A stretch of 41,628 nucleotides of DNA. It comes from Patescibacteria group bacterium (GTDB taxonomy: Bacteria; Patescibacteriota; Microgenomatia; UBA1400; PJMF01). The stretch spans positions 1 through 41,628 of the forward strand of contig JAHIVL010000073.1 of the NCBI GenBank assembly GCA_018816485.1. Direction: 5' to 3'. Under the pieces are notes generated by a model. That model had not been told where the DNA came from, ran no database searches, and worked only from the letters and a program-made list of their open reading frames with translations. The position numbers and the translations under genes are program-made. Shown here in pieces: positions 20,534 to 36,694 of the stretch (the first letter of the stretch is position 1; every line of letters begins with the position of its first letter).

Positions 20534-21793
20534 ATGACTTTATCGCCTAAAAAAAGTATTTTTTTATTTCTTTTTGCGTCTTTTCAAGTTTTAATCTTTT
20601 TTTTATTCTACACCTCATACCAATTCATAATAATTTCATTGTTTTTAGTTTTTTTATTTTTTTATTTTTGGTTTTTCAAATTAAAAATTACATTTGATTT
20701 GAGAGTGGGAATGTTGTGGTTGGGATTAATACTTTTTTTATGTATATCTTCAATTTTTAGTCATAGCTTGCCACTAAGTTTAGATAATATCGTTTTTTAC
20801 GCATCTTCATTTTGTATCTTTATATTTTTTAAAAGCTTGGGACTTAGTAAAATATTTTCAAAATCTCAGATAGCAGCTACTTTTTTATTAGTGGGTTTTG
20901 TTCTTTCAATGTTTTTTATACTATTCTTTAGTTTTCCAGAAACATCTGAATTTTTGCCTCCAGTTAATTTTTTTACAACGCATTATGGGCACAATCATTT
21001 TGCAGCTCTGCTTTTATTTTTAATTCCTTTGAGTTGGTGGTTTATCAGTTCTAGTGAATACAAATTTTTTGCTTATAGAAAGTCGATATTAGTTCTTTTT
21101 TACACTTTAATTATTTTTTCATTTGGTAGATTTGCAACTTTGTTAACAATAATTCAACTTTTTTTCATACCTGGAATAATCAACAAAAAATTCTTTAAGA
21201 AAATTTATCTTTATCTGGTGGGTATTATCTTGGCAAGTTCATTAGTGATTGGAGCGATGGTTTCATTAAACTCCGTTTCAAATTGTTTAGTAAATGAGTT
21301 CAAAATTCAGCTATGCAAACCAATCACAAACGAAGCTAGACCAGAGTATTTTAAACAGGCCGTAAGAAGTTTAAAAGCTTATCCTTTATTTGGATATGGT
21401 CCTGGAAGTTTTTCTTTAATATCCAAGAGATTTAACACAACATCGCAAAGTTTTTCGATATATGCTCATAACAACTTTCTTCAGATTTTTTCAGAATCTG
21501 GAGTTATTGTTGGAATTATCTATGTGCTGTTAATTGGATTGTTGTATAAAAATATGTTTTCTGTTTTGAAAAAAAGCAAAGATGGTAATAGATTAAATAG
21601 TTTTTTATATCTAGGATTAGTAAGTTTATTAATAAATTCATTTATTGATTTCGATTGGGAACTATTTCCTATTTTTCAGATGGTAATTATTTTTATAGCT
21701 GTTGTTCTTTGGGATTATCAGGGAGCATACTTCGATAATAAAAGAATATTTTTAGTATTAAAAAAATCTATTAATTACTTTTTATTTTTCTAA
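20534..21793 (+). CDS. O-antigen ligase/polymerase-like (Wzy_C domain) polytopic membrane protein
   Basis: 'SFGRFATLLTIIQLFF', 'GYGPGSFSLISKRF' and 'YAHNNFLQIFSESGVIVGIIYVLLIGLL' match the Wzy_C core, with 10 or more TM segments. Confidence 0.75.
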   Translation: MTLSPKKSIFLFLFASFQVLIFFLFYTSYQFIIISLFLVFLFFYFWFFKLKITFDLRVGMLWLGLILFLCISSIFSHSLPLSLDNIVFYASSFCIFIFFKSLGLSKIFSKSQIAATFLLVGFVLSMFFILFFSFPETSEFLPPVNFFTTHYGHNHFAALLLFLIPLSWWFISSSEYKFFAYRKSILVLFYTLIIFSFGRFATLLTIIQLFFIPGIINKKFFKKIYLYLVGIILASSLVIGAMVSLNSVSNCLVNEFKIQLCKPITNEARPEYFKQAVRSLKAYPLFGYGPGSFSLISKRFNTTSQSFSIYAHNNFLQIFSESGVIVGIIYVLLIGLLYKNMFSVLKKSKDGNRLNSFLYLGLVSLLINSFIDFDWELFPIFQMVIIFIAVVLWDYQGAYFDNKRIFLVLKKSINYFLFF

Positions 21794-22326
21794 TGGTGAT
21801 GCTGATTGGTCTTGGATTTATTAATTTTGTTACGAAAATTCTAATTAATGGCGGTAATGAGGAAATAACATTTAGAATTTTTCCTTACTTCTACTCACAA
21901 TCTGAATTCTTTTTGACTGAAGCAGATATTTCAGAAGAACAAACTGATTTATTATATAAAATTTATGAGAATCACGATAAATTTATTTTGAATAATATTG
22001 AAAAAGAACCAAATATAGATAAAAAAATTGAACTATATAAAAAACTCATGGTGGTAAGGTTGTACGATGTTACAAACACAAATTATTATCAGCTCTTGCT
22101 AGACCAGGGCATGTATGTCAGCTTGGGAGAGGCTTCATACAAAGGTCTTTCTATGCTGATAGAAAATGAAAATAATGGAATGGGGCAGTCATACATAGTA
22201 AAAGAAAACATAATTAATTATCTTTTATTGTCTGCTCATTGGCACGAAGAAAATGGTGAGTATGATTTGTATAAAAAATACTATGATTTTATTGAGTCAA
22301 TTTGGAATAAAGATTGGAGTAATTAA
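21793..22326 (+). CDS. Hypothetical protein with an N-terminal TM, coupled to the Wzy_C gene
   Basis: TAATG overlap with the upstream gene. The helical, Tyr/Glu-rich sequence has no family I recognise. Confidence 0.4.
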   Translation: MVMLIGLGFINFVTKILINGGNEEITFRIFPYFYSQSEFFLTEADISEEQTDLLYKIYENHDKFILNNIEKEPNIDKKIELYKKLMVVRLYDVTNTNYYQLLLDQGMYVSLGEASYKGLSMLIENENNGMGQSYIVKENIINYLLLSAHWHEENGEYDLYKKYYDFIESIWNKDWSN

Positions 22327-22979
22327 TAGTCACCTTTTAATAGCTGCTTGATGATTATTTTATAAAAAGTATTGAAAATTAGAGAAAGGTCATTTTTTAA
22401 CGACCAATTGAGTTTTGATTCATTTCTAACAATCAAGTCATTGATTTCGTTTTTTTCTAGTTTTCTCCATTCATTTAATGATTGGTAGCGATTTGGAGAT
22501 AGTGCCCATTTTGATATTATTCCTGGCCTAACTTTATATCTAAAATCCCAAGAAGAAGGAAGGCTATTAGCTTCGTTAACTGGTAGGGGGCGAGGTCCAA
22601 CTAAACTCATTTCTCCTTTTAGAATATTAATTATTTGTGGAATTTCATCTATACCAAAATTTGAAAGAGTTTTGCCAATAATAGTAAATCTTGGGTCGTT
22701 TTTAATTTTAAACATTGGGTAAGGAGAAATATTTAGTTTTTTGAGTTTGTCTTGTTGTGAGCTAGCTCCACGCTTCATAGTTCTAAGCTTGTAAATAGTA
22801 AATATTTTCTTGTCTTTTCCTATTCTTTTTTGTTTAAAAATAACTGGACATCCAATTAACAATACAAAAAAGGGATAAATAAATACAAAAATTGGTATGA
22901 AAAATATTAGACCAATGATTGATAAAATTATGTCAAAAATTCTTTTATTATCAATCATAGTTTGATCCCGGGTGGACAA
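22323..22979 (-). CDS. Small monotopic phosphoglycosyl transferase (bacterial sugar transferase, WbaP C-terminal/PglC-like), the pathway-initiating enzyme
   Basis: 'RIFDIILSIIGLIFFIPIF', 'VIFKQKRIGKDKKIFTIYKLRTM' and 'DEIPQIINILKGEMSLVGPRPLP'. Confidence 0.9.
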   Translation of the reverse strand: MSTRDQTMIDNKRIFDIILSIIGLIFFIPIFVFIYPFFVLLIGCPVIFKQKRIGKDKKIFTIYKLRTMKRGASSQQDKLKKLNISPYPMFKIKNDPRFTIIGKTLSNFGIDEIPQIINILKGEMSLVGPRPLPVNEANSLPSSWDFRYKVRPGIISKWALSPNRYQSLNEWRKLEKNEINDLIVRNESKLNWSLKNDLSLIFNTFYKIIIKQLLKGDY

Positions 22980-24294
22980 TTAAATCTAAATCTATATTTT
23001 TTGTAGTTTTAGTCTGTTTATATATCAATATTAACATTGTCGAAAAGATATAGTATACCAAATATTTATGAAATCTTGGTTTTAAGTAGTTTTTTATCGA
23101 GCGAAGCGTTCGAACTTTCTTAATTCTTTTTTCTTCTGATATCTCATTAAGAATACTTCTGACTGGTTCAAATATATGCAAATGTTGTTCCGAGTTAATT
23201 TCTTTAATAATAATACCTTTTTTTTGAAAAAATATTATTTGAGCTTCGATTTCTTTCTTGATTTCACTTTTTGATATTTTCTTTATGATAAGTCTAAGCA
23301 AGAAATTTGGGAGATTATAAAATATTCCGTTGTTATCTACTAAGGTGGGGATACTCTGAGTTTCTAAAATGGGTTTTCCACGTAAAAGATTTATATGAAC
23401 AATTATTTGATAATCATCAGTTAATTTTTTAAGAATATTTAAATCTTTTTTCGATACCATATTGGCAAAGACTGAAATATGAGTAATTGATTTTGCCTGA
23501 AGTTGATCAATGATTGCGTTATTAATTATTTCTGACATTCCATAGTCATCTGCAACAATTTTATCTGATGATTTTGATTTCAATAATCTAAAATCAATTA
23601 ATCTAATTAGATCAATACATGTTTTTACAATTCTTTGTAAAGAAGAATATCTGCTTGGTCTAATTTCTCGAATAGTAATTGGTAGTTCAATTACTTCATT
23701 TTTAAGTTTTAACAAAAGCTCAGTGTCAAATAGTTCGTGCTTTGTTGTAATTTCTCGTAATGCCTTTTTGAGTTTTTTAGTATTTCTAAATGCTTTTATT
23801 CCGTGCGTGTCTGTTCCTTCATATTTAAGTATGTATTTTAAAACAAATCCGAGTAGTTTTGTTCTGAGTCTTTCAAAATAAGGCCTTGAATCACTACTTT
23901 GTTTGTGTAGTTTTGAACCAGAAACAATGTTATGAGTTTGCAATTTTTTAAATGATTTTTTGATGAAATCGATGTCATAAAAATCAACATTTAGAACAAA
24001 AAGGTATCTGCAATTCGAACTTAGTAGTCCGTGTTTTACAGCTTGTCCAAATGATGGAAATGAGATTCGTCTTTTTTTAATAAATTTATATTTATTTTCT
24101 AATCGACATATTTCATTCCACGATTTGTCTGCGCTTCCATTTTCAATTAAAATAATTTCATCTAATGGAAGATTGTGTTGCTTAATTTCTGCAATAAAAG
24201 ATTCTATTTGAGTTGCTAGATCTTTTTCTTCATTGTAAACGGGGAAAATATAACTAGTTTTTAAAATTTCTTTCATACCACTTAACTGTTTCAA
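22951..24294 (-). CDS. Fusion protein: N-terminal GT2 glycosyltransferase plus C-terminal YdjC/ChbG/HpnK-type carbohydrate deacetylase
   Basis: GT2 part: 'YIFPVYNEEKDLATQIESF..IILIENGSADKSW'. YdjC part: 'IVADDYGMSEIINNAIIDQ', 'NSEQHLHIFEPV' and 'LIVHPGS', with a hydrophobic segment 'YLVYYIFSTMLILIY' between the last two blocks. Confidence 0.7.
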   Translation of the reverse strand: MKQLSGMKEILKTSYIFPVYNEEKDLATQIESFIAEIKQHNLPLDEIILIENGSADKSWNEICRLENKYKFIKKRRISFPSFGQAVKHGLLSSNCRYLFVLNVDFYDIDFIKKSFKKLQTHNIVSGSKLHKQSSDSRPYFERLRTKLLGFVLKYILKYEGTDTHGIKAFRNTKKLKKALREITTKHELFDTELLLKLKNEVIELPITIREIRPSRYSSLQRIVKTCIDLIRLIDFRLLKSKSSDKIVADDYGMSEIINNAIIDQLQAKSITHISVFANMVSKKDLNILKKLTDDYQIIVHINLLRGKPILETQSIPTLVDNNGIFYNLPNFLLRLIIKKISKSEIKKEIEAQIIFFQKKGIIIKEINSEQHLHIFEPVRSILNEISEEKRIKKVRTLRSIKNYLKPRFHKYLVYYIFSTMLILIYKQTKTTKNIDLDLIVHPGSNYD

Positions 24295-25183
24295 TCAAAC
24301 CCTGTTTAAGAGTAACTTTTGGTTTCCATTTTAACTCTTTTAAAGCTTTCTTGTTTGAAATATAACTTCTGTTTTGCTCAATACTTTTCATTTTCTTATA
24401 TTTAATTTTAATTTCCGAATTAAACATTCCTTTTATTTTTTTGCTTAAATCTTTAATTGAGGTTTCAGTTTGTGAAGAAATATTGAAACAGTTATTTATA
24501 TCATATTTTAGTGCCAAAACATTAGCATAAACAAGATCTGAAACAAATATAAAATCTCGTGTTTGATCTCCATTATTATTTATTGTTAATCGTTTTCCAT
24601 TGATAATATTTTCAATAAATATCGAAATTACTGATTTATTTTTGTTATTTTGTCTTGGGCCGTAGACATTAGAATAGCGTAATATTACATATTTTATTCC
24701 ACATATTTTTGAGTAGGCTTTAATATAATATTCTCCTGCAAGTTTTGATACACCATATGGTGTAATGGGAAAAGGTTGAGTTTTCTCAGTAAATGGAAGG
24801 GTTTTATCTTCTGAATAGATTGCTCCAGCAGAAGATGCAAAAATAATTTTTTTCACTTTATATTTTTTTGCGGCTTCAAGTAGGTTAATAACAGATGTGA
24901 TGTTATTGGCATCATTTAATGGTTTTTCTAGTGAGTTTGTTACTGAAATATTAGCAGCATGATGATTGATAACATCTGGTTTTTCATCCTCAATAAGTTT
25001 ATTTATTTCTTTTGATTTAGTTAAATTTATTTGGAAATAAGAAGCGGAAGGATTCTTGTAGGGGAGTAAATTAGCTTGTCTTTTGTCAGCTATGATAACT
25101 TCATGTCCTAGCTTGATATATGCATCAACTATGTGTGAGCCAATAAAACCACATCCTCCAGTGACGAGTATTTTCATAAACAA
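24254..25183 (-). CDS. NAD-dependent sugar-nucleotide epimerase/dehydratase (GalE-like SDR)
   Basis: 'KILVTGGCGFIGSHIVDAY', 'SSAGAIY' and the YxxxK block 'YGVSKLAGEYY'. It starts 9 nt after the stop of the surface-protein gene. Confidence 0.85.
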   Translation of the reverse strand: MFMKILVTGGCGFIGSHIVDAYIKLGHEVIIADKRQANLLPYKNPSASYFQINLTKSKEINKLIEDEKPDVINHHAANISVTNSLEKPLNDANNITSVINLLEAAKKYKVKKIIFASSAGAIYSEDKTLPFTEKTQPFPITPYGVSKLAGEYYIKAYSKICGIKYVILRYSNVYGPRQNNKNKSVISIFIENIINGKRLTINNNGDQTRDFIFVSDLVYANVLALKYDINNCFNISSQTETSIKDLSKKIKGMFNSEIKIKYKKMKSIEQNRSYISNKKALKELKWKPKVTLKQGLIETVKWYERNFKN

Positions 25184-25192
25184 TATGCAATT

Positions 25193-26761
25193 CTAACCCC
25201 CCAACTCACCTTTTTCCAGCTGAGTAGAAATCCAGAAACTCCATAGTCCTGAAATTATGAAGAATAAACCGCCAAATATTAACGCCATTGTTGTTCCTAC
25301 AGATCCTGAAACTGGTACGCCTTCGTCTGTGGCTGGTTGCGATGTTCTTGCTTCATCAGTAGCTTCTGCCGAGTTACTTGCTTCTGCTGAGTCAGTGGCG
25401 TCATCAATAGGGTAGGGATTTCCAGATCCATATGGAGCTGAATCTGCTTCATCATCAATATAATCTCCAGCATCAGCTAGTTGTTGGGATGTATCACTAA
25501 CGGTAAAATTAACAGTTTTTTCTACGATCTCTCCAGTATCTGGGTCTGTATATGAATAAGTTACGCTATGTTCGCCTGGTTCCAATGATTCCGAAAGTTC
25601 AGAAATATCTAAAACAAATTCCCCATTCTCATCAGCAATTATTTCTTGCTGAATTTGAGTGTCGGAATGAACCGAGATAGAAACCGCTATACCTGGAAGT
25701 GCTTTTCCAGTAATTATTGGTGTTGAGGTAGTGACTGTTTGATGATCTGTTAATTCAAGATCAAGTTTTGTAATAATAGCGCTCTCACTTGAACTTACAT
25801 CTTCATTTATCAAGTCATCAAGTAAAGCACTTCTATTAGATCTATCAGTTATTTTAGCTGAATCAGTAGCAATTTCTTTTTGAATAGTATCTATTGGCAT
25901 GATATCCATTTCTTTATCTATGACATCCTCAACAGTATTGATAGGAGCACTCACGAATTCTCTGATTGAATCTGTTTCTTTAGCTGAAATATTAGTATCG
26001 ATAGTTTTCTGTCCAAAGGTCATTCCAGTCACTGGTTGGGAATGTTCGACAGTTGTTGAAAAGAAAGTTTTTTGTGTGGAAAGAGGGCCTTGAACATTAA
26101 TAGTTATGTTATCTTGATCAGAAATCGATGCATATGCATTGCCATCAATAGTTCTCGCATTTGAAAGAGGAATAGCCCAGCTGCCAGACGCTTTTACTTG
26201 AGAAGACATAGTTCCAGCTCTATTAATATCGACATAAACGACAGATCCCTCAGCAGGAGCTCCGGTTTCGGTGGTGACACTTCCATAAATTGTTTTTGCA
26301 GCAGCAGGAGCTCCGTTTCTACTTGCGGTTTTTATTCTAAATGGTTGTCCATTATCGTCAAATGTATCTCCGGAGCCAGTTCCAATAAGGTAATAATACG
26401 TAGTAGCTTGTTCTAACCCTCTAATTGTGATGTGATGAATCTGAAACTCACCAACAGTACCGCTGATTTGATCTCTATCATTGCTTGCTTGAGATTTTAA
26501 ACTATTAGACTCAGCGCCATATTTTACAAATCCCGCAGTATTGTTGTCTGTTAAAAATGAAATAGTAAAACTAGTGTCATGAACATTCGACACTTTAACA
26601 TTTTTTGGAGTGGTTTCTACAGAAGCGCGTGGAGAGAAAACACCACCACCCTTTCCAATAAGCAAAGTTCCTGATATTAAAGCTATGACTAAAACAACAG
26701 TTCCCAGTATAGTGGGGATTCTTTTGTCAAGTATTTTCTTTGGTATCTTTAAATTATTCAT
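25193..26761 (-). CDS. Large surface protein: N-terminal signal anchor, FN3 (purple-acid-phosphatase N-like) domain, beta-sandwich/Ig-like domains, acidic linker, C-terminal hydrophobic anchor
   Basis: 'PKNVKVSNVHDTSFTISFLTDNNTAGFVKYG...HHITIRGLEQATTYYY' is FN3-like. 'YGSVTTETGAPAEGSVVYV' is CarboxypepD_reg-like. 'ITGKALPGIAVSISVHSDT...ADENGEFVL' is Ig-like. The tail is 'DDATDSAEASNSAEATDEARTSQPATDEGVPVSGSVGTTMALIFGGLFFIISGLWSFWI'. Confidence 0.55.
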   Translation of the reverse strand: MNNLKIPKKILDKRIPTILGTVVLVIALISGTLLIGKGGGVFSPRASVETTPKNVKVSNVHDTSFTISFLTDNNTAGFVKYGAESNSLKSQASNDRDQISGTVGEFQIHHITIRGLEQATTYYYLIGTGSGDTFDDNGQPFRIKTASRNGAPAAAKTIYGSVTTETGAPAEGSVVYVDINRAGTMSSQVKASGSWAIPLSNARTIDGNAYASISDQDNITINVQGPLSTQKTFFSTTVEHSQPVTGMTFGQKTIDTNISAKETDSIREFVSAPINTVEDVIDKEMDIMPIDTIQKEIATDSAKITDRSNRSALLDDLINEDVSSSESAIITKLDLELTDHQTVTTSTPIITGKALPGIAVSISVHSDTQIQQEIIADENGEFVLDISELSESLEPGEHSVTYSYTDPDTGEIVEKTVNFTVSDTSQQLADAGDYIDDEADSAPYGSGNPYPIDDATDSAEASNSAEATDEARTSQPATDEGVPVSGSVGTTMALIFGGLFFIISGLWSFWISTQLEKGELGG

Positions 26762-26918
26762 ATCTATTTGGCAAAATAAAAAGTATGCCTAGTTTTTCCA
26801 CATAAAAACTGTTCGTTTTTTTTCACGACAACTCTTCTATCTACTTTAGATAAGTATAGTCAAGAAAGCAACGCGAACAAAGACCGAAAATAATGTAATG
26901 AATGAGTACAAAAGATAT

Positions 26919-27374
26919 CTAGTTGTTGATGGGAGGTGTTTCTTCCTGAGTAGATTCAGAAATATCACTACTTTTTGAACTTTCAATTTCAGTTTTTAGT
27001 AATGATTCAGAGTCCTTTTTTTTAACTGGTGCCATTACTTGTTTTGGATCTAAATCGTCGATTGTGACCTCCAAAGGAACAACTTTTTCAGTTTTTCCAT
27101 CTCTGGATGTTAATATTTTATAAATAATAAATGAAGATAGTTCCTGTTCTGAATAAGAGTGTTTTTCTTGGATTTTTAGCAATTCATCCCTGTCAAAACT
27201 CGGCGTCAATGGCATTGCTAATGCAGTTAATTCCTTGGAAATTTCATCATTAGTTTGTGAGCTTATCAAACTAATTACAATCCAAAATAAAACTGAAACG
27301 AATAGCAAGATTAAAATAGTAAGGAACTGTCTATTGGTTTTTAATTTCTGAAAATCTTTTTTAATTTGGTTCAT
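26919..27374 (-). CDS. Hypothetical single-TM protein downstream of the pilO-like gene
   Basis: TM 'FLTILILLFVSVLFWIVISLI' and a Ser/Glu-rich tail. It starts 13 nt after the pilO-like stop. No family recognised. Confidence 0.4.
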   Translation of the reverse strand: MNQIKKDFQKLKTNRQFLTILILLFVSVLFWIVISLISSQTNDEISKELTALAMPLTPSFDRDELLKIQEKHSYSEQELSSFIIYKILTSRDGKTEKVVPLEVTIDDLDPKQVMAPVKKKDSESLLKTEIESSKSSDISESTQEETPPINN

Positions 27375-27387
27375 ATTGTTTTACTTT

Positions 27388-28020
27388 TTATTTAGATTTA
27401 GAAAGTACTTTTGTTTCAACTCCAAAATAGGGAACATTTATAGAAATATTAGCATTTAGTTTTTTTGATCCTCTATTTTCTTCAAGTGCAAATGTCACAG
27501 AATCAATAACAAAACTTTTTCTAGAATTTCTAAGAGCTTCAGTAAAATTCCTAATAGAGACGTAGTCACCCGATATGTTAATAGAAAAATTTAATTTTTG
27601 CTTTGCTTTTTGTGAAAAGAGAATATCTACAGAGTCATTTTGGGGTAGTTCAACAATACTCAAGCTTCTTATTATGACTTTGTTGTCGGCTGCTACTTTT
27701 TCAACGATCTTTGCACTTTTAATAATTTCAGGAGTTGAAGGTATTGCTTCGTCAAGAACGGGCAGTAAGCTCTCCACTGAGAGATATTCAGTCTGAGCAG
27801 TTTGGAGTGCGGCAATTTTTTGAGTAAGTTGTTTTTCTAATTTTTCTTTATTCTCAATTTCTTTTATAAGACTAGACATAGTTAATATTGTTGGTTTAAT
27901 GGCAAATACTGCTAGGAATAAAACTAGCCCAATAGTTAAAAAGAGCTCTAGTGATACTTTGGCCACTGGATTTTTATAAAAATGGTTAAGGGTGCTGGTG
28001 ATTTCACTTTTTTTTCGCAT
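27388..28020 (-). CDS. pilO: PilO-like type IV pilus assembly protein
   Basis: Short cytoplasmic N-terminus, one TM ('LFLTIGLVLFLAVFAI'), a coiled coil ('IENKEKLEKQLTQKIAALQTAQTEY') and an alpha/beta C-terminal domain. Its start is 1 nt from the pilN-like stop. Confidence 0.5.
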   Translation of the reverse strand: MRKKSEITSTLNHFYKNPVAKVSLELFLTIGLVLFLAVFAIKPTILTMSSLIKEIENKEKLEKQLTQKIAALQTAQTEYLSVESLLPVLDEAIPSTPEIIKSAKIVEKVAADNKVIIRSLSIVELPQNDSVDILFSQKAKQKLNFSINISGDYVSIRNFTEALRNSRKSFVIDSVTFALEENRGSKKLNANISINVPYFGVETKVLSKSK

Positions 28021-28021
28021 T

Positions 28022-28633
28022 TTATAATCCTTGAGTTCTATCTAGAAGGTCTACTGTTTCTTCCTTAGTAGGTTGTTGTTTAATCTTTACTTCTGGTCTA
28101 GTATCAACATTGATATTGAAAAATAATCCTGGCTCTACACTACTAGATTCAACCTCGTTTACATTAATATTTGAAAAATCTGGTGATATTTGTAAATTAT
28201 TGATAAGCAAATTAAATGAATTTTGAGAAAGAGTTTTTCCTGAAATGATGACAGAAGTAGGTCTGATAGCAAGTTCTTCCAATACGATTCCTTCTGGCAT
28301 AATATTACTCATACTTGCAAATGTATCAACAATATTTGTTTCTTGCTCAGTTTGCTTATATTGAAGGATTTTTTCTTGAATAGTTCTAAAGTTTTCCTCG
28401 GTGTCACCATAAGAAAGAACTATTTGTTTTTTTTGATTTATCGATGAGTTAAGGTCGGTAACTTTTCTGTCTAGACTAAATCTAGTGATAAAACTCATGA
28501 TAACTACAAGTTCAGTAAAAATAACAATGTATCTACCAGCAGATAAGGACCACCTTAATATTTTTCCTATGACTGTGGAAAAAAAGGGATCTTTTGGAAC
28601 TAAATTAATCTCTATCTGAGTAGCTTTTTTCAT
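28022..28633 (-). CDS. pilN: PilN-like type IV pilus assembly protein
   Basis: N-terminal 'IEINLVPKD' (the INLLP-type PilM-binding motif), one TM ('YIVIFTELVVIMSFI') and a coiled coil followed by a C-terminal domain. Confidence 0.6.
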   Translation of the reverse strand: MKKATQIEINLVPKDPFFSTVIGKILRWSLSAGRYIVIFTELVVIMSFITRFSLDRKVTDLNSSINQKKQIVLSYGDTEENFRTIQEKILQYKQTEQETNIVDTFASMSNIMPEGIVLEELAIRPTSVIISGKTLSQNSFNLLINNLQISPDFSNINVNEVESSSVEPGLFFNINVDTRPEVKIKQQPTKEETVDLLDRTQGL

Positions 28634-28642
28634 TACAAATTT

Positions 28643-28672
28643 ATTGTACTAGAAAATTGAGGACTATAGCAA
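28643..28672 (-). promoter_or_regulatory. Candidate promoter for pilN, possibly giving a leaderless or near-leaderless transcript
   Basis: On the minus strand: TTGCTA (28672-28667), an 18-nt spacer, TACAAT (28648-28643), then 9 nt to the ATG. No Shine-Dalgarno sequence is visible. Confidence 0.25.
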
Positions 28673-28834: not shown

Positions 28835-30535
28835 CTACACTAGATCATCATCCACCGACGTTTCTATCAAGAATTCTTGAGTTTGGTTGACATCTGATTT
28901 CCATTTTTGACCAAAAGTTCTGATTGCTTTATTAACAAGTTCTAGCTCTTTTATTTCGAATATTGCTGCAAAATATATATAAACTAGTATGCCGATGGTG
29001 CCAGTTGTAAGTGTTAATGCGATTAGTTCAATCGTTTTTGTAGTATTGAAAATTAGTTCATCAAATATTCTGAATGGCAGATATAAAAATATCGCCATGA
29101 AAAAGCTTGCTAATAATATTTTTATTTGCGGTATGAGTAAAGATTTGTCGATGAAGTTTGGTATAAATTTGTTAAAAATAATGATGTATAAAAATAGCTC
29201 TACCAAAAAGCTCGCACAACTAATAACTGCTAAGCCTAGAATACCAAAATTTGTGTAGTTAACCACTAAAAAAGAGCCGATGAGGTAAGAGCTAGTAAAT
29301 AAAACAGAAATGATAAGTGGGGTTTTTGTATCTTTCAATGCATGAAAACCTCTGATTAAAAGTTGTACCATGGCCTGGGCAGTTATAGATATGGCTAGTA
29401 TTGCCAAAATTTTTCCAGTTGTAATTGTTGAATGCCAGCTAAAGTTATCGGTTCCAAAAGCCAAACGAACTATTGGAACTCTTAAAATAAGTAAAAGCAC
29501 TGAAGTCGGCATCGCTAAGAAAGAAATTTGGTTTAATGATTGAAGAATAAGATCTCTGAACTTTGCAAGATTTTCTTTTCCAGATTGTTGAGATAAAAAA
29601 GGTAATGCTGCTTGGCTTAGTGGTACTCCAAACAGCCTAACTGGAAATACTGATAGGTAGGTTGCGTAAGAAATGTATAGGAAGCTAAGCTGGCCAATAG
29701 ATGTTGCAAAATAACCTAAAGCTAGGGTTTGAATGTGACTTACTCCAATTGTTAAAAATCTTGCTGGAGAAAGTAAAAATAATTTTTTGACTCCGGGGTA
29801 ATTTATATTAAGTGACAAAGTTGGTTTATAACCAAGCTTAAGAGCTAAAGGAATTTGGACAATCATGTGCATTAATGCCCCACACACTACTCCGATTCCT
29901 GCAGAATAAATACCAAAGGTTTTATGAAATATTGCAACTCCAGCGATGATTCCAAAATTATAAATAATTGGAGCAATACTTGGGACAATAAATCTTTTGT
30001 ATGATTGTAAAATTCCCGTCATAACATTTGAAACTGTAAAAAATATTTGAGCTAAAAGCATGGTTTTGGTAAGATTGATTACGATTGAAAGTTGTTCGGA
30101 AGATAGCTTGTCTCCAACTCTAGCCAATGTTAGTGGCTCGGCATAAAAGTAAATAACAATACTTGCGATGGCGAAGACCAACATGAGTATATTCAATACA
30201 ATAGAACTCATTTTAAAAGCCGTTTCTTCATTATTATTTTTTTTCACTGAGAGAAAAATTGGAATGAAAGAAGCAGATAGGGCACCAAATACTAGGAGCT
30301 GAAATAACATGTCTGGGATTTGAAATGCTAGCGTCCATGCAGTGACAATTTCCTCACTAAAGTAGGTGAGTATAACTCTGGTTCTTACGAAACCTGATAA
30401 AATTGAAAGTATATTAGCCAAAGCAATAACAGCAGCAGCAGAGTTAATACTTGTTTGTTGTTTTTCAAGCCATTTTGTATTATTGGAAAAAAGCTGAGTA
30501 ATTGTATTTTTTGTAAATGAAAACATTTGTATCAA
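28835..30535 (-). CDS. murJ: Lipid II flippase MurJ (MviN, MOP superfamily)
   Basis: 'SGFVRTRVILTYF', 'AWTLAFQIPDMLFQLLVFGALSASFIPIFL', about 14 TM segments and a length typical of MurJ. Confidence 0.85.
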   Translation of the reverse strand: MIQMFSFTKNTITQLFSNNTKWLEKQQTSINSAAAVIALANILSILSGFVRTRVILTYFSEEIVTAWTLAFQIPDMLFQLLVFGALSASFIPIFLSVKKNNNEETAFKMSSIVLNILMLVFAIASIVIYFYAEPLTLARVGDKLSSEQLSIVINLTKTMLLAQIFFTVSNVMTGILQSYKRFIVPSIAPIIYNFGIIAGVAIFHKTFGIYSAGIGVVCGALMHMIVQIPLALKLGYKPTLSLNINYPGVKKLFLLSPARFLTIGVSHIQTLALGYFATSIGQLSFLYISYATYLSVFPVRLFGVPLSQAALPFLSQQSGKENLAKFRDLILQSLNQISFLAMPTSVLLLILRVPIVRLAFGTDNFSWHSTITTGKILAILAISITAQAMVQLLIRGFHALKDTKTPLIISVLFTSSYLIGSFLVVNYTNFGILGLAVISCASFLVELFLYIIIFNKFIPNFIDKSLLIPQIKILLASFFMAIFLYLPFRIFDELIFNTTKTIELIALTLTTGTIGILVYIYFAAIFEIKELELVNKAIRTFGQKWKSDVNQTQEFLIETSVDDDLV

Positions 30536-30625: not shown

Positions 30626-31018
30626 ATGCCAATATTACAAAACGCAAAAAAAGCACTTAGATCCAGTAGAAAAAAAGCAGTTTTTAATTCAAGAGTAAAA
30701 TCAATATTAAAAACTATGATTGATAAGATAAAAAAAGATCCATCTAAAGGTAATCTTTCTATTGTTTTTTCTAGTATCGACAAGGCTGTTAAAAGAAATT
30801 TAATGCATAAAAATAAAGCTGGACGAATGAAATCTCAACTAAGTAAGTTGGTTAAAACTTCTAGTTCTTCAAGTGCTTCAAAAGCAAAAAAGTTAGTCGT
30901 AACAAAGAAACCCGTAGTCAAAAAAGTAGCAAAATCTGTTAAGAAAACTGTTAAGAAAATTGTTAAGAAACCTGTAGTAAAAAAGACTGTAGTAAAAAAG
31001 ACCGTAGTTAAAAAATAA
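30626..31018 (+). CDS. rpsT: 30S ribosomal protein S20 with a roughly 45-aa Lys-rich C-terminal extension
   Basis: 'MPILQNAKKALRSSRKKAVFNSRVKS..' is the S20 N-terminus. The tail is 'KKLVVTKKPVVKKVAKSVKKTVKKIVKKPVVKKTVVKKTVVKK'. Confidence 0.9.
   Translation: MPILQNAKKALRSSRKKAVFNSRVKSILKTMIDKIKKDPSKGNLSIVFSSIDKAVKRNLMHKNKAGRMKSQLSKLVKTSSSSSASKAKKLVVTKKPVVKKVAKSVKKTVKKIVKKPVVKKTVVKKTVVKK
30914..31015 (+). repeat. In-frame short tandem repeats encoding the (V/T)KK-rich S20 tail
   Basis: Three 12-mers: gttaagaaaact, gttaagaaaatt, gttaagaaacct (30938-30973). Then 15-mers gtagtaaaaaagact and gtagtaaaaaagacc, plus the partial gtagttaaaaaa (30974-31015). A related copy gtagtcaaaaaagta lies at 30914-30928. 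Confidence 0.8.
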
Positions 31019-31035
31019 TACCCCGAAGGGCACAG

Positions 31036-32853
31036 GTGAAAATGGGAAACCCAGCGTACTCGCGCTCTTCTATTCGAAATTTTTCAATAATTGCACATAT
31101 CGATCACGGCAAGACAACTTTGACCGATAGATTCTTACGTTTTACCAACACGGTTGATAAGCTTAATTTTCAAGACAGAATGATGGATAGTAATCCTATC
31201 GAGAGAGAAAGAGGAATTACTATCAAATTGGCTCCAGTTAGAATAGAGTATGTTAGTGGGAATCATGAAGGCAAAAAATATATTTTCAATTTAATTGATA
31301 CCCCAGGTCATGTTGACTTTGGATATGAAGTTAGTCGTTCTTTAGCTGCTTGCGAAGGAGTGATTTTAGTTGTTGATGCTTCGCAGGGAATTCAGGCACA
31401 AACATTATCAAATTTTGAGCAAGCAATTGCTTTGGGCTTAGTGGTTATTCCTGTTTTGAATAAAGTTGATTTGCCATCCGCAGAAATAGAAAGAGTCGCT
31501 TTGGAGGTGATGGAACTATGTAATTGCTCAGAAGATGAATTGATTATGGTTTCAGCAAAAACTGGAGAAAATATTCAATCAGTTCTTGAAGCAGTTATTG
31601 ATCGGATTCCAGCCCCCGGTGGAGATGATAAAAAGGACGCAAGATCCTTATTAATAACTTCATATTTTGATCCTCATAGAGGGGCAGTAGCTTTGATTAG
31701 AGTTATTGATGGAGTAGTAAAAAAAGAAAAAATGGGTTTTACACAGTCAAAATCATCTTTTTCACCAATAGAGTTGGGTGTTTTTGTTCCAGGTATGCAA
31801 CCTAAAGATGAGTTAAGGGCAGGTGAAGTAGGTTATGTAGCAACAGGATTAAAAGACATTAAATCTTTAAAAATTGGTGACACTATGACCACTTTCAGTA
31901 AAAGAGATAAAGTTGTGCCCTTACCAGGATATAAAGAGCCGATGCCAATGGTTTATATGGAAATTTATCCTACTGATTCAGCGGAATTTACTTTTTTGCA
32001 AGATGCAATGGACAAATTATCTCTTAGAGATGCTGCACTTAGATTTTCTGGTACTCATTCTCAGGCTTTGGGAAGCGGTTTGAGAGTGGGGTTTTTGGGA
32101 ATTTTACATGCAGAAATTGTTGTTGAAAGATTAACTCGTGAATTTAATTTGGAGCTAATTGCTACAGTTCCATCAGTTACTTATCAAGTAACTACTTCAA
32201 ATGGAGAAGAATTATTGGTAAGAACGCCAGCTGATATGCCAGACCCATCTTTGATCAGAGAAATTCGTGAGCCAATTACTAGAACAAATATATTGTCCCC
32301 AATTCATCAAATGAGTGAAATCATTAATTTAGTGAGAGATAGAAGAGGTAGCTTTGTAAAGAGCATCCACGTGGGAAGTAGAGTTAATATTGAGTGTATT
32401 GTGCCACTTGCTGAAATAATTACCGATTTTCATGACACTCTAAAATCACTTACTTCAGGATATGCATCAATGGAATATAAATTAATCAAGTTCGAGCCGG
32501 TGGATGCTGTCAAAATATCAATTTTACTTAATGGCGAGGAAGTGGAGGCATTAAGTTTTATGACTGTGAGGGAGACTGCTCCGCAACAAGGAAAAAGAGT
32601 CGTCAAGAAATTAAAAGAAGTATTACCAAGACAAATGTTTGAACTTCCAATTCAAGCTGTGATTGGAGGAACTGTTGTTGCCCGCGAAACTGTTAAAGCA
32701 TTTAGAAAAGACGTTACAGCTAAACTTTATGGAGGTGATGTTACTAGAAGAAAAAAGCTTTTATCTAAACAAGCCAAAGGCAAAAAACGCATGAAACAGT
32801 TTGGTAAGGTTGAGTTAAATCAAGATACTTTTATGGCAGTTTTAAAGAGGTAG
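31036..32853 (+). CDS. lepA: Translation elongation factor 4 (LepA)
   Basis: 'IRNFSIIAHIDHGKTTLTDR', 'LIDTPGHVDF', 'NKVDLPSA' and the LepA-specific C-terminus 'KLYGGDVTRRKKLLSKQAKGKKRMKQFGKVELNQDTFMAVLK'. Start is GTG at 31036 or ATG at 31042. Confidence 0.95.
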   Translation: MKMGNPAYSRSSIRNFSIIAHIDHGKTTLTDRFLRFTNTVDKLNFQDRMMDSNPIERERGITIKLAPVRIEYVSGNHEGKKYIFNLIDTPGHVDFGYEVSRSLAACEGVILVVDASQGIQAQTLSNFEQAIALGLVVIPVLNKVDLPSAEIERVALEVMELCNCSEDELIMVSAKTGENIQSVLEAVIDRIPAPGGDDKKDARSLLITSYFDPHRGAVALIRVIDGVVKKEKMGFTQSKSSFSPIELGVFVPGMQPKDELRAGEVGYVATGLKDIKSLKIGDTMTTFSKRDKVVPLPGYKEPMPMVYMEIYPTDSAEFTFLQDAMDKLSLRDAALRFSGTHSQALGSGLRVGFLGILHAEIVVERLTREFNLELIATVPSVTYQVTTSNGEELLVRTPADMPDPSLIREIREPITRTNILSPIHQMSEIINLVRDRRGSFVKSIHVGSRVNIECIVPLAEIITDFHDTLKSLTSGYASMEYKLIKFEPVDAVKISILLNGEEVEALSFMTVRETAPQQGKRVVKKLKEVLPRQMFELPIQAVIGGTVVARETVKAFRKDVTAKLYGGDVTRRKKLLSKQAKGKKRMKQFGKVELNQDTFMAVLKR

Positions 32854-32950
32854 AGAGTGTTAAAAAGTTCCACCCTCCCATGAAAACCTAGAACCTCCAC
32901 ATGTTTGCATCCCATAATTATATCATATTAGAAGTGATGAATCACTGTTT

Positions 32951-32976
32951 AATCGAGTACGTCTTTTCGATTTTTT
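32951..32976 (+). terminator. Weak candidate intrinsic terminator after lepA
   Basis: AATCGA (32951-32956) pairs with TCGATT (32967-32972) across a 10-nt loop and runs into TTTTTT (32971-32976). The stem is short and AT-rich. Confidence 0.2.
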
Positions 32977-33008
32977 CTAGATTGTAGATTTTTATTTTTT
33001 GCAGTACA

Positions 33009-33659: not shown

Positions 33660-33684
33660 TATCAAAAAATGCTATAATATAGAT

Positions 33685-34341: not shown

Positions 34342-34580
34342 TGAATCCATTATATTTACTTCAAATTAACAATGGTAGTGAAATTATGCTTGTAGTGGTC
34401 AAGTATATGTTTGTCTTAGCTGGATTTTTATATTTGTTATATGCAATTTTAGTTACCAAACAAGTTTCAATAATGAGTAAGACTGTGGAAACAACCAACT
34501 CAACACAAAACAAGGTTTTAGCATTCGTTCATCTAGTTATAGCAATATTGATTTTGATATACTACTTACTAGTTTTGTAA
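34341..34580 (+). CDS. 79-aa two-TM protein (DUF5657-like, tentative)
   Basis: 'VVKYMFVLAGFLYLLYAILVTKQVSIMSKTVET....LAFVHLVIAILILIYYLLVL'. TAATG overlap with the upstream gene. Confidence 0.45.
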   Translation: MNPLYLLQINNGSEIMLVVVKYMFVLAGFLYLLYAILVTKQVSIMSKTVETTNSTQNKVLAFVHLVIAILILIYYLLVL

Positions 34581-34615
34581 GGTAATTTTTGCATTGGTGT
34601 GATAGAATTTGATTA

Positions 34616-36574: not shown

Positions 36575-36589
36575 GGTTTAATTACCTAA

Positions 36590-36692: not shown

Positions 36693-36694
36693 AA

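What the first reader, a model, noticed from the sequence alone, without database searches (positions are those of the whole stretch)
22323..28633. One co-directional gene string joins PilN/PilO-like pilus assembly genes, a 522-aa FN3/Ig surface protein and the initiating enzymes of a glycan pathway
Seen: seven consecutive minus-strand genes with almost no spacing. The pilN stop and pilO start are 1 nt apart. The pilO gene and the 151-aa TM protein gene are 13 nt apart, followed by a 157-nt gap. The surface-protein stop and the GalE-like start are 9 nt apart. The GalE-like gene overlaps GT2::YdjC by 41 nt, and GT2::YdjC overlaps the phosphoglycosyl transferase by 29 nt. Known: PilN/PilO form the inner-membrane alignment subcomplex of type IV pili, and small PglC/WbaP-type transferases start polyprenyl-linked glycan assembly. 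Pilins and surface proteins are frequent O-glycosylation targets. Inference: the surface protein, and possibly a pilus-like appendage, may be produced and glycosylated as one functional unit. The adjacent 25-kb island would supply the glycan. I do not know of a described system with this gene order.
Basis: partly seen in the sequence, partly recalled or inferred. Interest (0 to 1): 0.75.

Follow-up and report, generated by a model that had tools for sequence, protein, structure and literature searches.

The report
Conserved PilN-PilO surface-protein operon beside glycan island
The seven-gene string is two things joined: an old, strictly conserved four-gene module of ultra-small Microgenomates (CPR) bacteria, which pairs two pilus-machine membrane proteins with a small membrane protein and a surface protein that has a membrane helix at each end, and next to it the changeable edge of a sugar-synthesis island.

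Summary
All seven minus-strand ORFs, their spacing and their domains are confirmed. The string is composite, not one unit.

**Conserved core.** It is pilN–pilO–a 151-aa single-pass membrane protein (TM151)–the 522-aa FN3/Ig protein.
- The quartet is intact in 45/45 GTDB-species loci of the window's clade.
- It is intact in 32/33 loci of a distant clade (~35-40% identity), although the flanks there are rearranged.
- In the distant clade TM151 and the FN3 gene overlap by 4 nt in 18/32 loci.
- No PilM, PilB, PilC or pilin was recognised in the annotated flanks; most loci were screened only with window-derived queries that include none of these.

**Glycan genes.** They are clade-specific neighbours.
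- The phosphoglycosyl transferase (PGT) follows the FN3 gene directly in 24/41 loci of the window's clade and in 0/35 of the distant clade.
- GalE and GT2::YdjC sit between them only in the window and 2-3 loci.
- These three genes have island-like GC content.
- Promoter-like elements precede pilN, the FN3 gene (deeply conserved) and the glycan genes.

**The FN3 protein.** It has an N-terminal membrane helix, three β-sandwich domains, two disordered linkers and a C-terminal LPXTG-like motif followed by a second membrane helix.

**Best reading (about 0.45).** A PilN/PilO-based envelope module, probably a lineage-specific outer part of the CPR type IV pilus machine. Glycosylation of the FN3 protein is plausible but unproven. 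Verdict: new variant of a known kind, moderately interesting.

The parts
28022..28633 (-). PilN-family single-pass membrane protein (203 aa), first gene of the conserved quartet
   Evidence: Pfam PilN 40.4 bits, cut-off 22.8. One membrane helix at about residues 30-50. The N-terminal motif INL(L/V)PKDPFF is invariant in 24 orthologues. Present upstream of the FN3 gene in 45/45 and 32/33 loci.
28643..28672 (-). Promoter-like element upstream of pilN: TTGCTA-18 nt-TACAAT, ending 9 nt before the ATG
   Evidence: Consensus scan and sequence. An equivalent -10 box lies close to the pilN ATG in most loci. The distant clade has a clean TTTACA-N17-TATACT ending 6-8 nt before the ATG. Inferred, not mapped.
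27388..28020 (-). PilO-family single-pass membrane protein (210 aa), 1 nt after the pilN stop
   Evidence: The window protein alone is weak (PF04350, E = 0.008). 23/24 orthologues match PF04350, best 3.2e-11. The family profile matches M. xanthus PilO 3jc8_O at 4.4e-8.
26919..27374 (-). TM151: lineage-specific small single-pass membrane protein in the position that pilP or pilW occupies in other pilus operons
   Evidence: No Pfam family among 24 members. Only 53 homologues, all from this family. AF2 model (pLDDT 70): membrane helix 2-41, short helices, β-hairpin 85-100. No Foldseek match, E >= 0.7. No profile relation to PilN or PilO. Always lies between pilO and the FN3 gene.
26843..26877 (-). 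Conserved promoter-like element dedicated to the FN3 gene: TTCGCGTTGC-N17-TAAAGT
   Evidence: The pattern TTCGCRTTG-N20-24-TANAGT occurs once in the window, with 0 expected from shuffles. It occurs exactly once per locus in 40/53 loci, always just upstream of the FN3 gene. In some lineages the ATG lies 9-14 nt after the -10 box.
25193..26761 (-). 522-aa FN3/Ig surface protein with a membrane helix at each end: N-terminal helix, three β-sandwich domains, two disordered linkers, C-terminal VPVSG motif plus helix
   Evidence: Pfam. AF2 model (pLDDT 78): helices 9-36 and 488-519; domains 50-145, 155-250 and 332-421; disordered 259-330 and 429-486. Foldseek gives only generic FN3/Ig hits. The family has 925 50%-identity clusters at E <= 1e-30. 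The C-terminal [LIV]Px[STAP]G-plus-helix is conserved across clades.
24254..25183 (-). GalE-like NAD-dependent sugar epimerase/dehydratase (probable start at ATG 25177); part of the variable glycan island
   Evidence: Pfam Epimerase 1.4e-58; NCBIfam GalE below cut-off. In this position only in the window, L010 and L011. GC 0.281. A -10-like TAGAAT overlaps the FN3 stop codon, 12 nt before ATG 25177.
22951..24294 (-). GT2::YdjC fusion: glycosyltransferase plus carbohydrate deacetylase; part of the variable island
   Evidence: Pfam GT2 4e-11 plus YdjC 3.6e-28. Weak NCBIfam similarity to HpnK and chitin-disaccharide deacetylase. Found at this position in 3 loci and elsewhere in L007. GC 0.272.
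22323..22979 (-). Small PglC-type phosphoglycosyl transferase (initiating enzyme)
   Evidence: Bac_transf 161 bits. One N-terminal hydrophobic segment. Directly downstream of the FN3 gene in 24/41 loci of the window's clade and 0/35 of the distant clade.
20534..22326 (+). Wzy_C (O-antigen-ligase superfamily) membrane protein converging on the PGT; split in the window by a 1-nt deletion near 21790
   Evidence: Wzy_C 49-50 bits. The public records carry one 597-aa ORF; the window has T5 instead of T6. A convergent Wzy_C gene accompanies the PGT in 22/30 loci with at least 5 kb downstream. Weak C-terminal TPR hits in 2 of 6 orthologues.
28835..30535 (-). MurJ (lipid II flippase family): conserved neighbour, not part of the unit
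   Evidence: Pfam MurJ 5e-62. Same strand upstream in 41/43 loci of the window's clade. Opposite strand in 14/16 loci of the distant clade, where rpsT lies directly upstream of pilN instead (13/16).

Best explanation
The string is a composite of two parts.

**Part 1: the conserved module.** This is an ancient operon of Microgenomates-type CPR bacteria: pilN-pilO-TM151-FN3 gene.
- PilN and PilO are true members of the type IV pilus alignment-protein families.
- PilN keeps the N-terminal INLLP-type peptide that in other systems docks the cytoplasmic PilM.
- TM151 sits in the operon position of PilP or PilW. The FN3 protein sits in the position of PilQ.
- The FN3 protein starts with a conserved membrane helix. 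It then extends three β-sandwich domains and two flexible linkers outward. It ends in an LPXTG-like motif plus a second helix.
- It could therefore tie the membrane platform to the cell wall.

**What I infer.** The four proteins form one envelope complex. Most likely it is the lineage-specific outer, wall-crossing or wall-anchoring part of the CPR type IV pilus machine, which has no secretin.

**Part 2: the glycan genes.** GalE, GT2::YdjC and the PGT, with the convergent Wzy_C gene, are the proximal edge of a variable surface-glycan island. The island is inserted next to the module. They probably have their own promoter. They may decorate the FN3 protein's Ser/Thr/Pro-rich linkers, but they are not part of the conserved unit.

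**Shown versus inferred.**
- Shown: gene content, family membership, topology, conservation, operon-like packing.
- Inferred: complex formation, link to the pilus, sortase processing, glycosylation.
For: **The quartet is one unit.**
- It is intact in 45/45 loci of the window's clade, in 32/33 loci of a distant clade and in three still more divergent loci.
- This holds although murJ and rpsT are inverted relative to the quartet between the clades.
- pilN/pilO/TM151 overlap or lie within 13 nt of each other. In the distant clade TM151 and the FN3 gene overlap by 4 nt in 18/32 loci and lie within 12 nt in 31/32.
- The FN3 protein's two membrane helices are conserved, including IPTxxG at the N-terminus and a Gly pattern at the C-terminus.

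**PilN and PilO are true family members.**
- PilN is above Pfam's cut-off.
- PilO is supported at family level.
- The PilN N-terminal motif is invariant.

**Background from the literature.**
- CPR bacteria have type IV pili with PilM, PilN and PilO but no PilQ (PMC6744442).
- A lineage-specific gene (pilW) in the pilP slot has a precedent in Thermus (PMC6325625).

**The glycan genes are separable.**
- Their frequencies at this position are 24/41, 0/35 and 3-4 loci.
- There is a GC break at the FN3|GalE junction.
- The FN3 gene has its own deeply conserved promoter-like element.
- TATAAT-like boxes lie 6-12 nt before the PGT or GalE start in 11/19 loci.
Against: - No PilM, PilB, PilC, PilT, PilD or pilin was recognised in the flanks. 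Pfam annotation covers the window and about eight loci. The other ~100 loci were screened only with window-derived queries, none of which is a PilM/B/C/pilin. I could not check whether these genes exist elsewhere in the same genomes, or whether a second pilMNO set exists.
- TM151 is not PilP-like in sequence or predicted fold.
- The FN3 protein matches only generic FN3/Ig folds and nothing pilus-specific.
- The dedicated strong-looking promoter of the FN3 gene in the window's clade fits an abundant structural surface protein as well as a machine part.
- The flanking housekeeping block (smpB...lepA-rpsT) is almost as syntenic within the window's clade. Synteny within one clade alone is therefore weak evidence.
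- PilN/PilO homologues can serve machines other than pili (PMC10823254).
- The LPXTG-like motif is degenerate. The NCBIfam scan of this protein, whatever anchor models that library holds, returned no family at all. A crude motif search found no sortase gene in the loci.
Confidence: 0.45

Rival explanations
1. All seven genes are one functional unit in which the FN3 protein, and perhaps a pilus, is made and O-glycosylated. The adjacent PGT starts the glycan. GalE and GT2::YdjC supply or modify the sugars. The Wzy_C protein acts as a PglL/WsaB-type O-oligosaccharyltransferase.
For: - The genes are tightly packed, and the 9-15-nt FN3-GalE gap holds no terminator.
- The PGT directly follows the FN3 gene in 24/41 loci, with a convergent Wzy_C gene.
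- The FN3 protein has Ser/Thr/Ala/Pro-rich disordered linkers, a typical kind of O-glycosylation target.
- The Wzy_C neighbours carry long C-terminal extensions, with weak TPR hits in 2 of 6, as in WsfB and PglL (PMC2943079).
- Other lineages carry GT2 plus PMT (GT-C) genes downstream instead.
- There is a precedent: S-layer genes next to slg clusters (PMC2943079).
Against: - The PGT and Wzy_C are absent downstream in 0/35 distant-clade loci and in about a third of the window's clade.
- GalE and GT2::YdjC are at this position in only 3-4 loci.
- There is a GC break at the FN3|GalE junction.
- Separate promoter-like elements are present.
- The island also holds WecG/TagA, Glf, a second Wzy_C and a carbamoyltransferase. 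These fit a wall polysaccharide at least as well.
- Nothing tested here distinguishes a Wzy_C O-oligosaccharyltransferase from a ligase or a polymerase.
Confidence: 0.2
2. PilN and PilO have been repurposed. The quartet is a pilus-independent machine in which a PilN/PilO cage or platform, plus TM151, positions, exports or anchors the FN3 protein as a new surface structure. This would be comparable to the recruitment of PilM/N/O into the Helicobacter flagellar cage.
For: - pilM, pilB, pilC and pilin genes were never recognised in the flanks.
- The four genes are strictly co-inherited and translationally coupled.
- There is a precedent for PilN/PilO outside pili (PMC10823254).
- In Saccharibacteria, by contrast, pilM, pilN and pilO lie inside the pilus loci (PMC12206443).
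Against: - The PilN N-terminus keeps the PilM-docking type of motif, which argues for a PilM partner.
- Tiny CPR genomes rarely keep paralogous sets.
- PilN and PilO families are reported as part of CPR pilus systems (PMC6744442).
Confidence: 0.2
3. Synteny without function. The FN3 protein is simply an abundant wall-anchored or S-layer-like surface protein. Its gene has stayed next to pilN-pilO-TM151 because these small genomes rarely rearrange.
For: - The unrelated housekeeping genes smpB, lepA, rpsT and murJ are nearly as syntenic within the window's clade.
- The FN3 gene has its own conserved promoter and the highest GC in the window, which is consistent with high expression.
- Its folds are generic adhesin or S-layer-like folds.
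- Genes for other LPxTG/LPxAG-type surface proteins follow it in many loci.
Against: - The quartet survives the murJ/rpsT inversion that separates the clades.
- In the distant clade TM151 and the FN3 gene share an ATGA-type 4-nt overlap in 18/32 loci and have no promoter spacer between them, so they form one operon there.
- The FN3 protein's membrane helices are conserved well beyond what a signal peptide needs.
Confidence: 0.15

Closest known systems
Type IVa pilus alignment operon pilMNOPQ (Pseudomonas, Myxococcus) and Thermus pilMNOWQ
   Same: - PilN followed at once by PilO, both single-pass membrane proteins.
- Two further envelope proteins follow in the same operon.
- A lineage-specific gene in the pilP slot has a precedent (pilW; PMC6325625).
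- The PilN N-terminal peptide is of the PilM-binding type.
   Different: - No pilM upstream.
- The third protein has no lipobox and no PilP-type β-sandwich.
- The fourth protein is not a secretin. It is an FN3/Ig protein with a membrane helix at each end.
- The organism has no outer membrane.
Helicobacter pylori flagellar-cage PilM/PilN/PilO (PMC10823254)
   Same: PilN/PilO homologues are encoded away from any pilus genes, and there they serve another envelope machine.
   Different: - H. pylori keeps pilM in the same operon.
- It has no FN3-type partner.
- CPR bacteria generally do have type IV pili.
Gram-positive LPXTG sortase substrates (Ig-fold adhesins with Pro/Thr-rich wall-spanning linkers)
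   Same: - N-terminal hydrophobic leader.
- Tandem β-sandwich domains.
- A Pro/Thr/Ser-rich linker.
- A C-terminal [LIV]Px[STAP]G motif followed by a hydrophobic helix and a short charged tail.
- Neighbouring genes encode clearer LPxTG/LPxAG proteins.
   Different: - The motif is degenerate (VPVSG).
- The tail has mixed charge.
- Both helices are unusually conserved.
- The NCBIfam scan returned no family for this protein.
- No sortase gene is nearby.
S-layer glycoprotein genes beside slg clusters (Geobacillus sgsE; WsaP, WsaB) and pilin O-glycosylation (PglL, TfpO) (PMC2943079)
   Same: - A surface-protein gene next to a low-GC glycan cluster.
- An initiating PGT.
- A Wzy_C-domain membrane protein.
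- The structural gene appears to have its own promoter.
   Different: - Glycosylation is untested here.
- The PGT is the small PglC type, not the WbaP type.
- The linkage is not universal in the family.
- The island also has teichoic-acid-like genes (WecG/TagA).
Actinobacterial Ppm1/Pmt protein O-mannosylation (my own knowledge)
   Same: In the distant clades a small GT2 and PMT/PMT_2 (GT-C) genes lie a few kb downstream of the quartet. The neighbouring surface proteins are Thr/Pro-rich.
   Different: This does not apply to the window itself. PMT_2 proteins are common in CPR genomes and their substrates are unknown.

Membership tests
PilN (type IV pilus alignment protein, PF05137) | Match to the family model above the curated cut-off | tested here: met
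   40.4 bits against a cut-off of 22.8. The distant-clade orthologue in L066 scores 41.5 bits.
PilN (type IV pilus alignment protein, PF05137) | Single-pass topology with a short cytoplasmic N-terminus that carries the PilM-binding peptide (INLLP type) | tested here: met
   One membrane helix at about residues 30-50. N10, L11, P13, D15, P16 and F17 are invariant in 24 orthologues. The distant clade has IEF(I/L)P. [quoted passage not shown] The INLLP consensus is from my own knowledge.
PilN (type IV pilus alignment protein, PF05137) | Encoded with pilM and other pilus core genes | tested here: not met
   Where flanks carry Pfam annotation (the window; L001-L004, L066, L118-L120) no PilM, PilB, PilC, PilT or pilin appears within ±10 kb. 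The other ~100 loci were screened only with window-derived queries that would not detect these genes, but the known neighbours (MurJ or rpsT, then PilO) leave no room for pilM directly upstream of pilN. Presence elsewhere in the genome could not be tested.
PilO (PF04350) | Match to the family model or profile | tested here: met
   The window protein alone is below cut-off (16.7 against 22 bits). 23/24 orthologues match, best 3.2e-11. L066 scores 48.6 bits. The family profile matches M. xanthus PilO 3jc8_O at 4.4e-8 over residues 13-192.
PilP / GspC (inner-membrane-anchored β-sandwich adaptor) | Lipobox or membrane anchor plus a homology-region β-sandwich domain | tested here: not met
   TM151 has a membrane helix but no Cys lipobox. 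The AF2 model shows only short helices and one β-hairpin. No Pfam match and no Foldseek match. Only the operon position is shared.
Secretin PilQ | Secretin and N0/N1 domains | tested here: not met
   The FN3 protein matches only Pur_ac_phosph_N/fn3, CarboxypepD_reg and Big domains. Foldseek gives generic FN3/Ig hits.
LPXTG sortase-anchored surface proteins | C-terminal LPXTG pentapeptide, hydrophobic helix, positively charged tail | tested here: inconclusive
   [LIV]Px[STAP]G plus a helix is conserved across clades. The motif is degenerate and the tail has mixed charge. The NCBIfam scan returned no family for this protein.
LPXTG sortase-anchored surface proteins | A sortase encoded in the genome | not testable with these tools
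   No TLxTC-type ORF was found in about 115 loci with a crude motif search.
En bloc O-linked protein glycosylation (PglL / WsaB type) | Initiating polyprenyl-phosphate phosphoglycosyl transferase | tested here: met
   Bac_transf 161 bits. NCBIfam similarity to the WbaP/WcaJ/EpsZ catalytic domain.
En bloc O-linked protein glycosylation (PglL / WsaB type) | Wzy_C-domain O-oligosaccharyltransferase, as distinct from a ligase or polymerase | tested here: inconclusive
   The Wzy_C domain is present (49 bits). No PglL-specific domain was found. Weak TPR hits appear in 2/6 orthologues.
En bloc O-linked protein glycosylation (PglL / WsaB type) | The acceptor protein actually carries the glycan | not testable with these tools
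   This needs glycoproteomics.

The most novel reading that the evidence does not exclude
PilN-PilO-TM151-FN3 is an undescribed envelope-spanning module of Microgenomates. In it, a β-sandwich protein held in the membrane at its N-terminus and tied to the wall or membrane at its C-terminus replaces the PilP/PilQ outer half of the type IV pilus machine. Alternatively, a PilN/PilO platform has been recruited to build a new, pilus-independent surface structure.
Probability: 0.4. Interest if true: 0.75.

Novelty: new variant of a known kind. Interest (0 to 1): 0.55.

Why it matters
CPR/Patescibacteria depend on type IV pili and surface contacts with their hosts. It is not known how their pili cross the wall and S-layer, since they have no secretin.

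- **A candidate for that gap.** A four-gene module is conserved across hundreds of lineages (925 clusters at 50% identity). It links the only recognisable periplasmic pilus proteins to a dedicated surface protein that has a membrane helix at each end.
- **Better annotation.** Many genes now labelled 'fibronectin type III domain protein' or 'hypothetical protein' can be read as one unit.
- **A regulatory landmark.** The conserved promoter-like element before the FN3 gene gives a fixed reference point in these uncultured genomes.
- **A caution.** Tight co-directional packing next to a glycan island does not by itself define a functional unit.

Tried and rejected
**Searches for a specific structural or sequence relative**
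- Foldseek of the FN3 model against the PDB gave only generic FN3/Ig hits: adhesins, contactins, the purple-acid-phosphatase N-domain and one S-layer protein.
- Profile searches of PilN, TM151 and the FN3 protein against PDB sequences gave nothing significant. Only PilO matched.

**TM151**
- As a PilP-like or half-PilO protein: rejected by hhalign, by the AF2 model and by Foldseek.

**The FN3 protein as a sortase-polymerised pilin**
- The invariant Lys in AAKTIYG is not conserved in the distant clade.

**The FN3 protein as a type IV pilin**
- It has no G-F-T-L-x-E class III signal sequence.

**RNA elements**
- Rfam and tRNA scans of the window found nothing.
- The leader hairpin before the FN3 gene is strong in some loci (z = -4) but weak in the window. 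I did not pursue it.

**Terminators**
- No convincing terminator lies at any junction of the string. The total number of promoter-like and terminator-like hits does not exceed the shuffles.

**Sortase**
- The motif search in the loci found none.

**Literature**
- Searches for a prior description of this module found none.
- Searches for the INLLP motif text found nothing.

- The first metagenome scan, with a 31-sequence alignment, failed for lack of conserved stretches and was repeated with 7 sequences.

Full report
**1. What is in the window**

The window has low GC (0.31). It matches an ENA/Logan metagenome contig that NCBI assigns to a 'Patescibacteria group bacterium'.

All seven minus-strand ORFs named in the finding exist at the stated coordinates, with the stated spacing. 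The gene caller's later starts change two junctions slightly. GalE then starts at 25177, giving a 15-nt gap. GT2::YdjC then starts at 24276, giving a 23-nt overlap.

Pfam and NCBIfam confirm these assignments:
- a small PglC-type phosphoglycosyl transferase (PGT; Bac_transf, 161 bits);
- a GT2::YdjC fusion;
- a GalE-like epimerase;
- a 522-aa protein with FN3 (purple-acid-phosphatase N-domain type) and CarboxypepD_reg/Big_6 domains;
- a 151-aa protein with no family (TM151);
- a weak PilO match;
- a clear PilN match.

The surroundings:
- Upstream on the same strand lies MurJ.
- Beyond MurJ is a housekeeping block: rpsT, lepA, smpB, cmk and PBP1.
- Downstream, a Wzy_C gene converges on the PGT.
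- Positions 400-22326 hold a glycan island: several GT2 and GT1 genes, Glf, WecG/TagA, a second Wzy_C, a carbamoyltransferase and others.
- No window ORF of at least 100 aa matches PilM, PilB, PilC, PilD or a pilin.

**2. PilN and PilO are real family members**

PilN:
- It is above Pfam's cut-off.
- It has one membrane helix.
- Across 24 orthologues its N-terminus is invariant: INL(L/V)PKDPFF.
[quoted passage not shown] The INLLP consensus itself is from my own knowledge.

PilO:
- In the window copy alone it is weak.
- 23 of 24 orthologues match PF04350, best 3.2e-11.
- The family profile matches Myxococcus PilO (PDB 3jc8) at 4.4e-8 over nearly its full length.

**3. The 522-aa FN3 protein**

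AlphaFold2 with 115 homologues (mean pLDDT 78) gives this layout:
- an N-terminal membrane helix (9-36);
- three confident β-sandwich domains (50-145, 155-250, 332-421);
- two disordered linkers (259-330, 429-486);
- a C-terminal membrane helix (488-519).

Foldseek against the PDB returns only generic FN3/Ig tandem hits.

The alignments show unusually conserved helices:
- an IPTxxG motif before the first helix;
- a Gly pattern in the last helix.

They also show a conserved C-terminal [LIV]Px[STAP]G motif directly before the last helix. In the window it reads VPVSG. In other lineages it reads IPETG, LPNSG, LPVAG or VPTSG.

Neighbouring genes in many loci encode proteins with clearer LPxTG or LPxAG endings. 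A sortase-type sorting signal is therefore a reasonable reading. It remains unproven:
- the NCBIfam scan returned no family for this protein, whatever anchor models that library holds;
- no sortase gene is nearby;
- the tail after the helix has mixed charge.

The family is large. It has 925 clusters at 50% identity with E <= 1e-30.

**4. TM151**

- It has a membrane helix, a few short helices, one β-hairpin and a disordered acidic/Ser-rich tail.
- It has no Pfam family.
- It has only 53 detectable homologues, all from this family.
- It has no structural match.
- It has no profile similarity to PilN or PilO.
- It shares only its operon position with PilP.

**5. Gene neighbourhoods: the decisive evidence**

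*The window's clade.* A scan of GTDB species genomes with the FN3 profile gave 49 loci, named Pacebacteria, Woesebacteria or Microgenomates. Several carry an obviously wrong 'Pseudomonadales' label. I annotated them with phmmer:

| Feature | Count |
|---|---|
| PilN, PilO and TM151 directly upstream of the FN3 gene | 45/45 loci with enough sequence |
| MurJ upstream on the same strand | 41/43 |
| PGT within 300 nt downstream | 24/41 |
| PGT anywhere downstream | 27/41 |
| PGT and Wzy_C both present, among loci with at least 5 kb downstream | 22/30 |
| GalE and GT2::YdjC between the FN3 gene and the PGT | window, L010, L011; partly L043 |

In about a third of these loci the FN3 gene is followed instead by paralogous surface proteins that begin 'MINATP...' and end in LPxTG-type motifs.

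*A distant clade.* I used distant family members (about 35-40% identical to the window protein) to scan metagenomes. This gave 63 further loci, annotated:

| Feature | Count |
|---|---|
| Quartet complete | 32/33 (exception L091) |
| murJ on the opposite strand | 14/16 |
| rpsT directly upstream of pilN, same strand | 13/16 |
| TM151 and the FN3 gene overlap by 4 nt | 18/32 |
| TM151 and the FN3 gene within 12 nt | 31/32 |
| PGT or Wzy_C downstream | 0/35 |

*Still more divergent members.* Three further loci show the same quartet. It is followed by GT2, GT4, methyltransferase, amine-oxidase, PMT/PMT_2 (GT-C) and DUF2298 genes.

*What this shows.* The quartet survives a rearrangement of its flanks and is translationally coupled. 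That is much stronger evidence for a functional unit than synteny within one clade, where unrelated housekeeping genes are conserved just as well.

**6. Transcription signals (inferred from sequence conservation only)**

Before the FN3 gene:
- The TM151-FN3 gap holds a deeply conserved element, TTCGnnnnnTTnTTCGCRTTGC-N17-TCTCTAnAGT.
- It occurs once in the window at 26843-26877, with 0 expected from shuffles.
- It occurs exactly once per locus in 40/53 loci, always at this position.
- It reads as a -35/-10 promoter.
- In some lineages the FN3 ATG lies 9-14 nt after the -10 box, which suggests a leaderless mRNA.
- In others a short leader with a hairpin and a U-run precedes the ATG.

Before pilN:
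- There is a separate -10 box close to the ATG.
- In the window it is TTGCTA-18-TACAAT, ending 9 nt before the ATG.
- In the distant clade it is a clean TTTACA-N17-TATACT.

Before the PGT or GalE:
- A TATAAT-like box lies 6-12 nt before the start in 11/19 loci.
- It often overlaps the FN3 stop codon. In the window it is TAGAAT at 25195-25190.

No terminator is evident at any junction. The likely units in the window are therefore [pilN-pilO-TM151], [the FN3 gene, with possible read-through] and [galE-GT2::YdjC-pgt].

GC content agrees with this split:
- FN3 gene: 0.383, the highest in the window.
- pilN, pilO and TM151: about 0.31.
- The three glycan genes: 0.27-0.29, like the island (mean 0.294).

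**7. Interpretation**

*Shown.* The conserved unit is PilN-PilO-TM151-FN3. The glycan genes are a clade-specific and partly locus-specific neighbour.

*Inferred, best reading (about 0.45).* The four proteins form one envelope complex.
- PilN and PilO still look able to bind PilM.
- CPR bacteria are reported to have type IV pili with PilM, PilN and PilO but no secretin (PMC6744442).
- TM151 and the FN3 protein occupy the operon positions of PilP/PilW and PilQ (PMC6325625).
- The FN3 protein's architecture suits a membrane-to-wall strut or ring.

*Rivals.*
Glycosylation of the FN3 linkers remains plausible, given the Wzy_C neighbour, the slg precedent in PMC2943079 and the PMT genes in other clades.
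- (b) PilN and PilO repurposed for a pilus-independent structure, as in the Helicobacter flagellar cage (PMC10823254), about 0.2.
- (c) Mere inherited adjacency of an abundant surface protein, about 0.15.

*The main gap.* I could not inspect whole genomes for pilM, pilB or pilC, or for a second pilN/pilO pair. Within the flanks, only the window and about eight loci carry Pfam annotation. The rest were screened with window-derived queries that cannot detect those genes.

**8. Novelty and verdict**

I found no paper that describes this module. Public records name the genes 'PilN domain-containing', 'fibronectin type III domain-containing' and 'hypothetical'. Each part belongs to a known kind. 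The combination and its deep conservation are new.

Verdict: new variant of a known kind, interest about 0.55. Its interpretation is partly supported.

Noticed in passing
window 21785-21795 (Wzy_C gene 20534-22326, + strand): The window carries T5 where both public records of the same contig carry T6. One 597-aa Wzy_C gene is therefore split into 419-aa and 177-aa ORFs. This is either a homopolymer sequencing or assembly difference or a real frameshift variant.
   Followed up: yes
window 26843-26877 (-); same position in 40/53 loci: A deeply conserved promoter-like element dedicated to the FN3 gene (TTCGCRTTGC-N17-TAnAGT), preceded by a TTCG repeat. It is unique within each 20-kb locus, so it is not a general promoter consensus. 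It may include a regulator binding site.
   Followed up: partly
window 26762-26842 (-); L014 7122-7165, L051 9144-9185: Between the -10 box and the FN3 ATG many loci have a hairpin of variable sequence followed by a U-run, with no obvious Shine-Dalgarno sequence. The fold is strong in some loci (z about -4) and weak in the window, which instead has a 4-codon mini-ORF (ATG TGG AAA AAC TAG). It may be an mRNA stabiliser or an attenuator.
   Followed up: partly
window 28643-28633 and 25195-25177; many loci: The start codons of pilN, of the FN3 gene (in some lineages) and of PGT/GalE lie only 6-14 nt after a TATAAT-like box. This suggests that leaderless mRNAs are common in these organisms.
   Followed up: partly
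L015 11844-16002, L027 11704-16765, L042 11544-16923, L048 3328-6475, L050 8783-12739: A family of paralogous surface proteins that begin 'MINA(T/N)P...', with a low-complexity cytoplasmic N-terminus, one membrane helix and a C-terminal LPxTG-type ending. In about a third of the window-clade loci they take the place of the glycan genes directly after the FN3 gene.
   Followed up: no
window 22951-24294 (-): The GT2::YdjC fusion joins a polyprenyl-phosphate-type glycosyltransferase to a sugar deacetylase. The pairing recalls HpnI/HpnK or ArnC/ArnD and could make a lipid-linked amino sugar. It recurs in L007, L010 and L011.
   Followed up: no
window 30626-37159 (+), and the matching block in the window-clade loci: The block smpB - 650-aa protein (cytoplasmic domain, one membrane helix, repeat-rich C-terminal half) - 79-aa DUF5657 - bPH_2 protein - (kinase) - lepA - rpsT is syntenic across the whole window clade. 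It served as the control for 'synteny without function'.
   Followed up: partly
PilN C-terminus, window 28022-28050 (-); alignment A2: A subset of PilN orthologues ends in a conserved (L/I)LDRTQGL peptide after a variable linker. Its function is unknown.
   Followed up: no
Record titles of loci L010, L014, L016-L020 and others: Many of these CPR genome bins are deposited under the name 'uncultured Pseudomonadales bacterium'. Given their gene content and low GC, this is clearly a labelling error.
   Followed up: no
L066 13185-19729; L118 11352-20736; L119 10001-19463: In the distant clades the quartet is followed by a recurring set: an amine-oxidase-type flavoprotein, unknown polytopic membrane proteins, PMT/PMT_2 (GT-C) and DUF2298. 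This may be a different surface-glycosylation system.
   Followed up: partly
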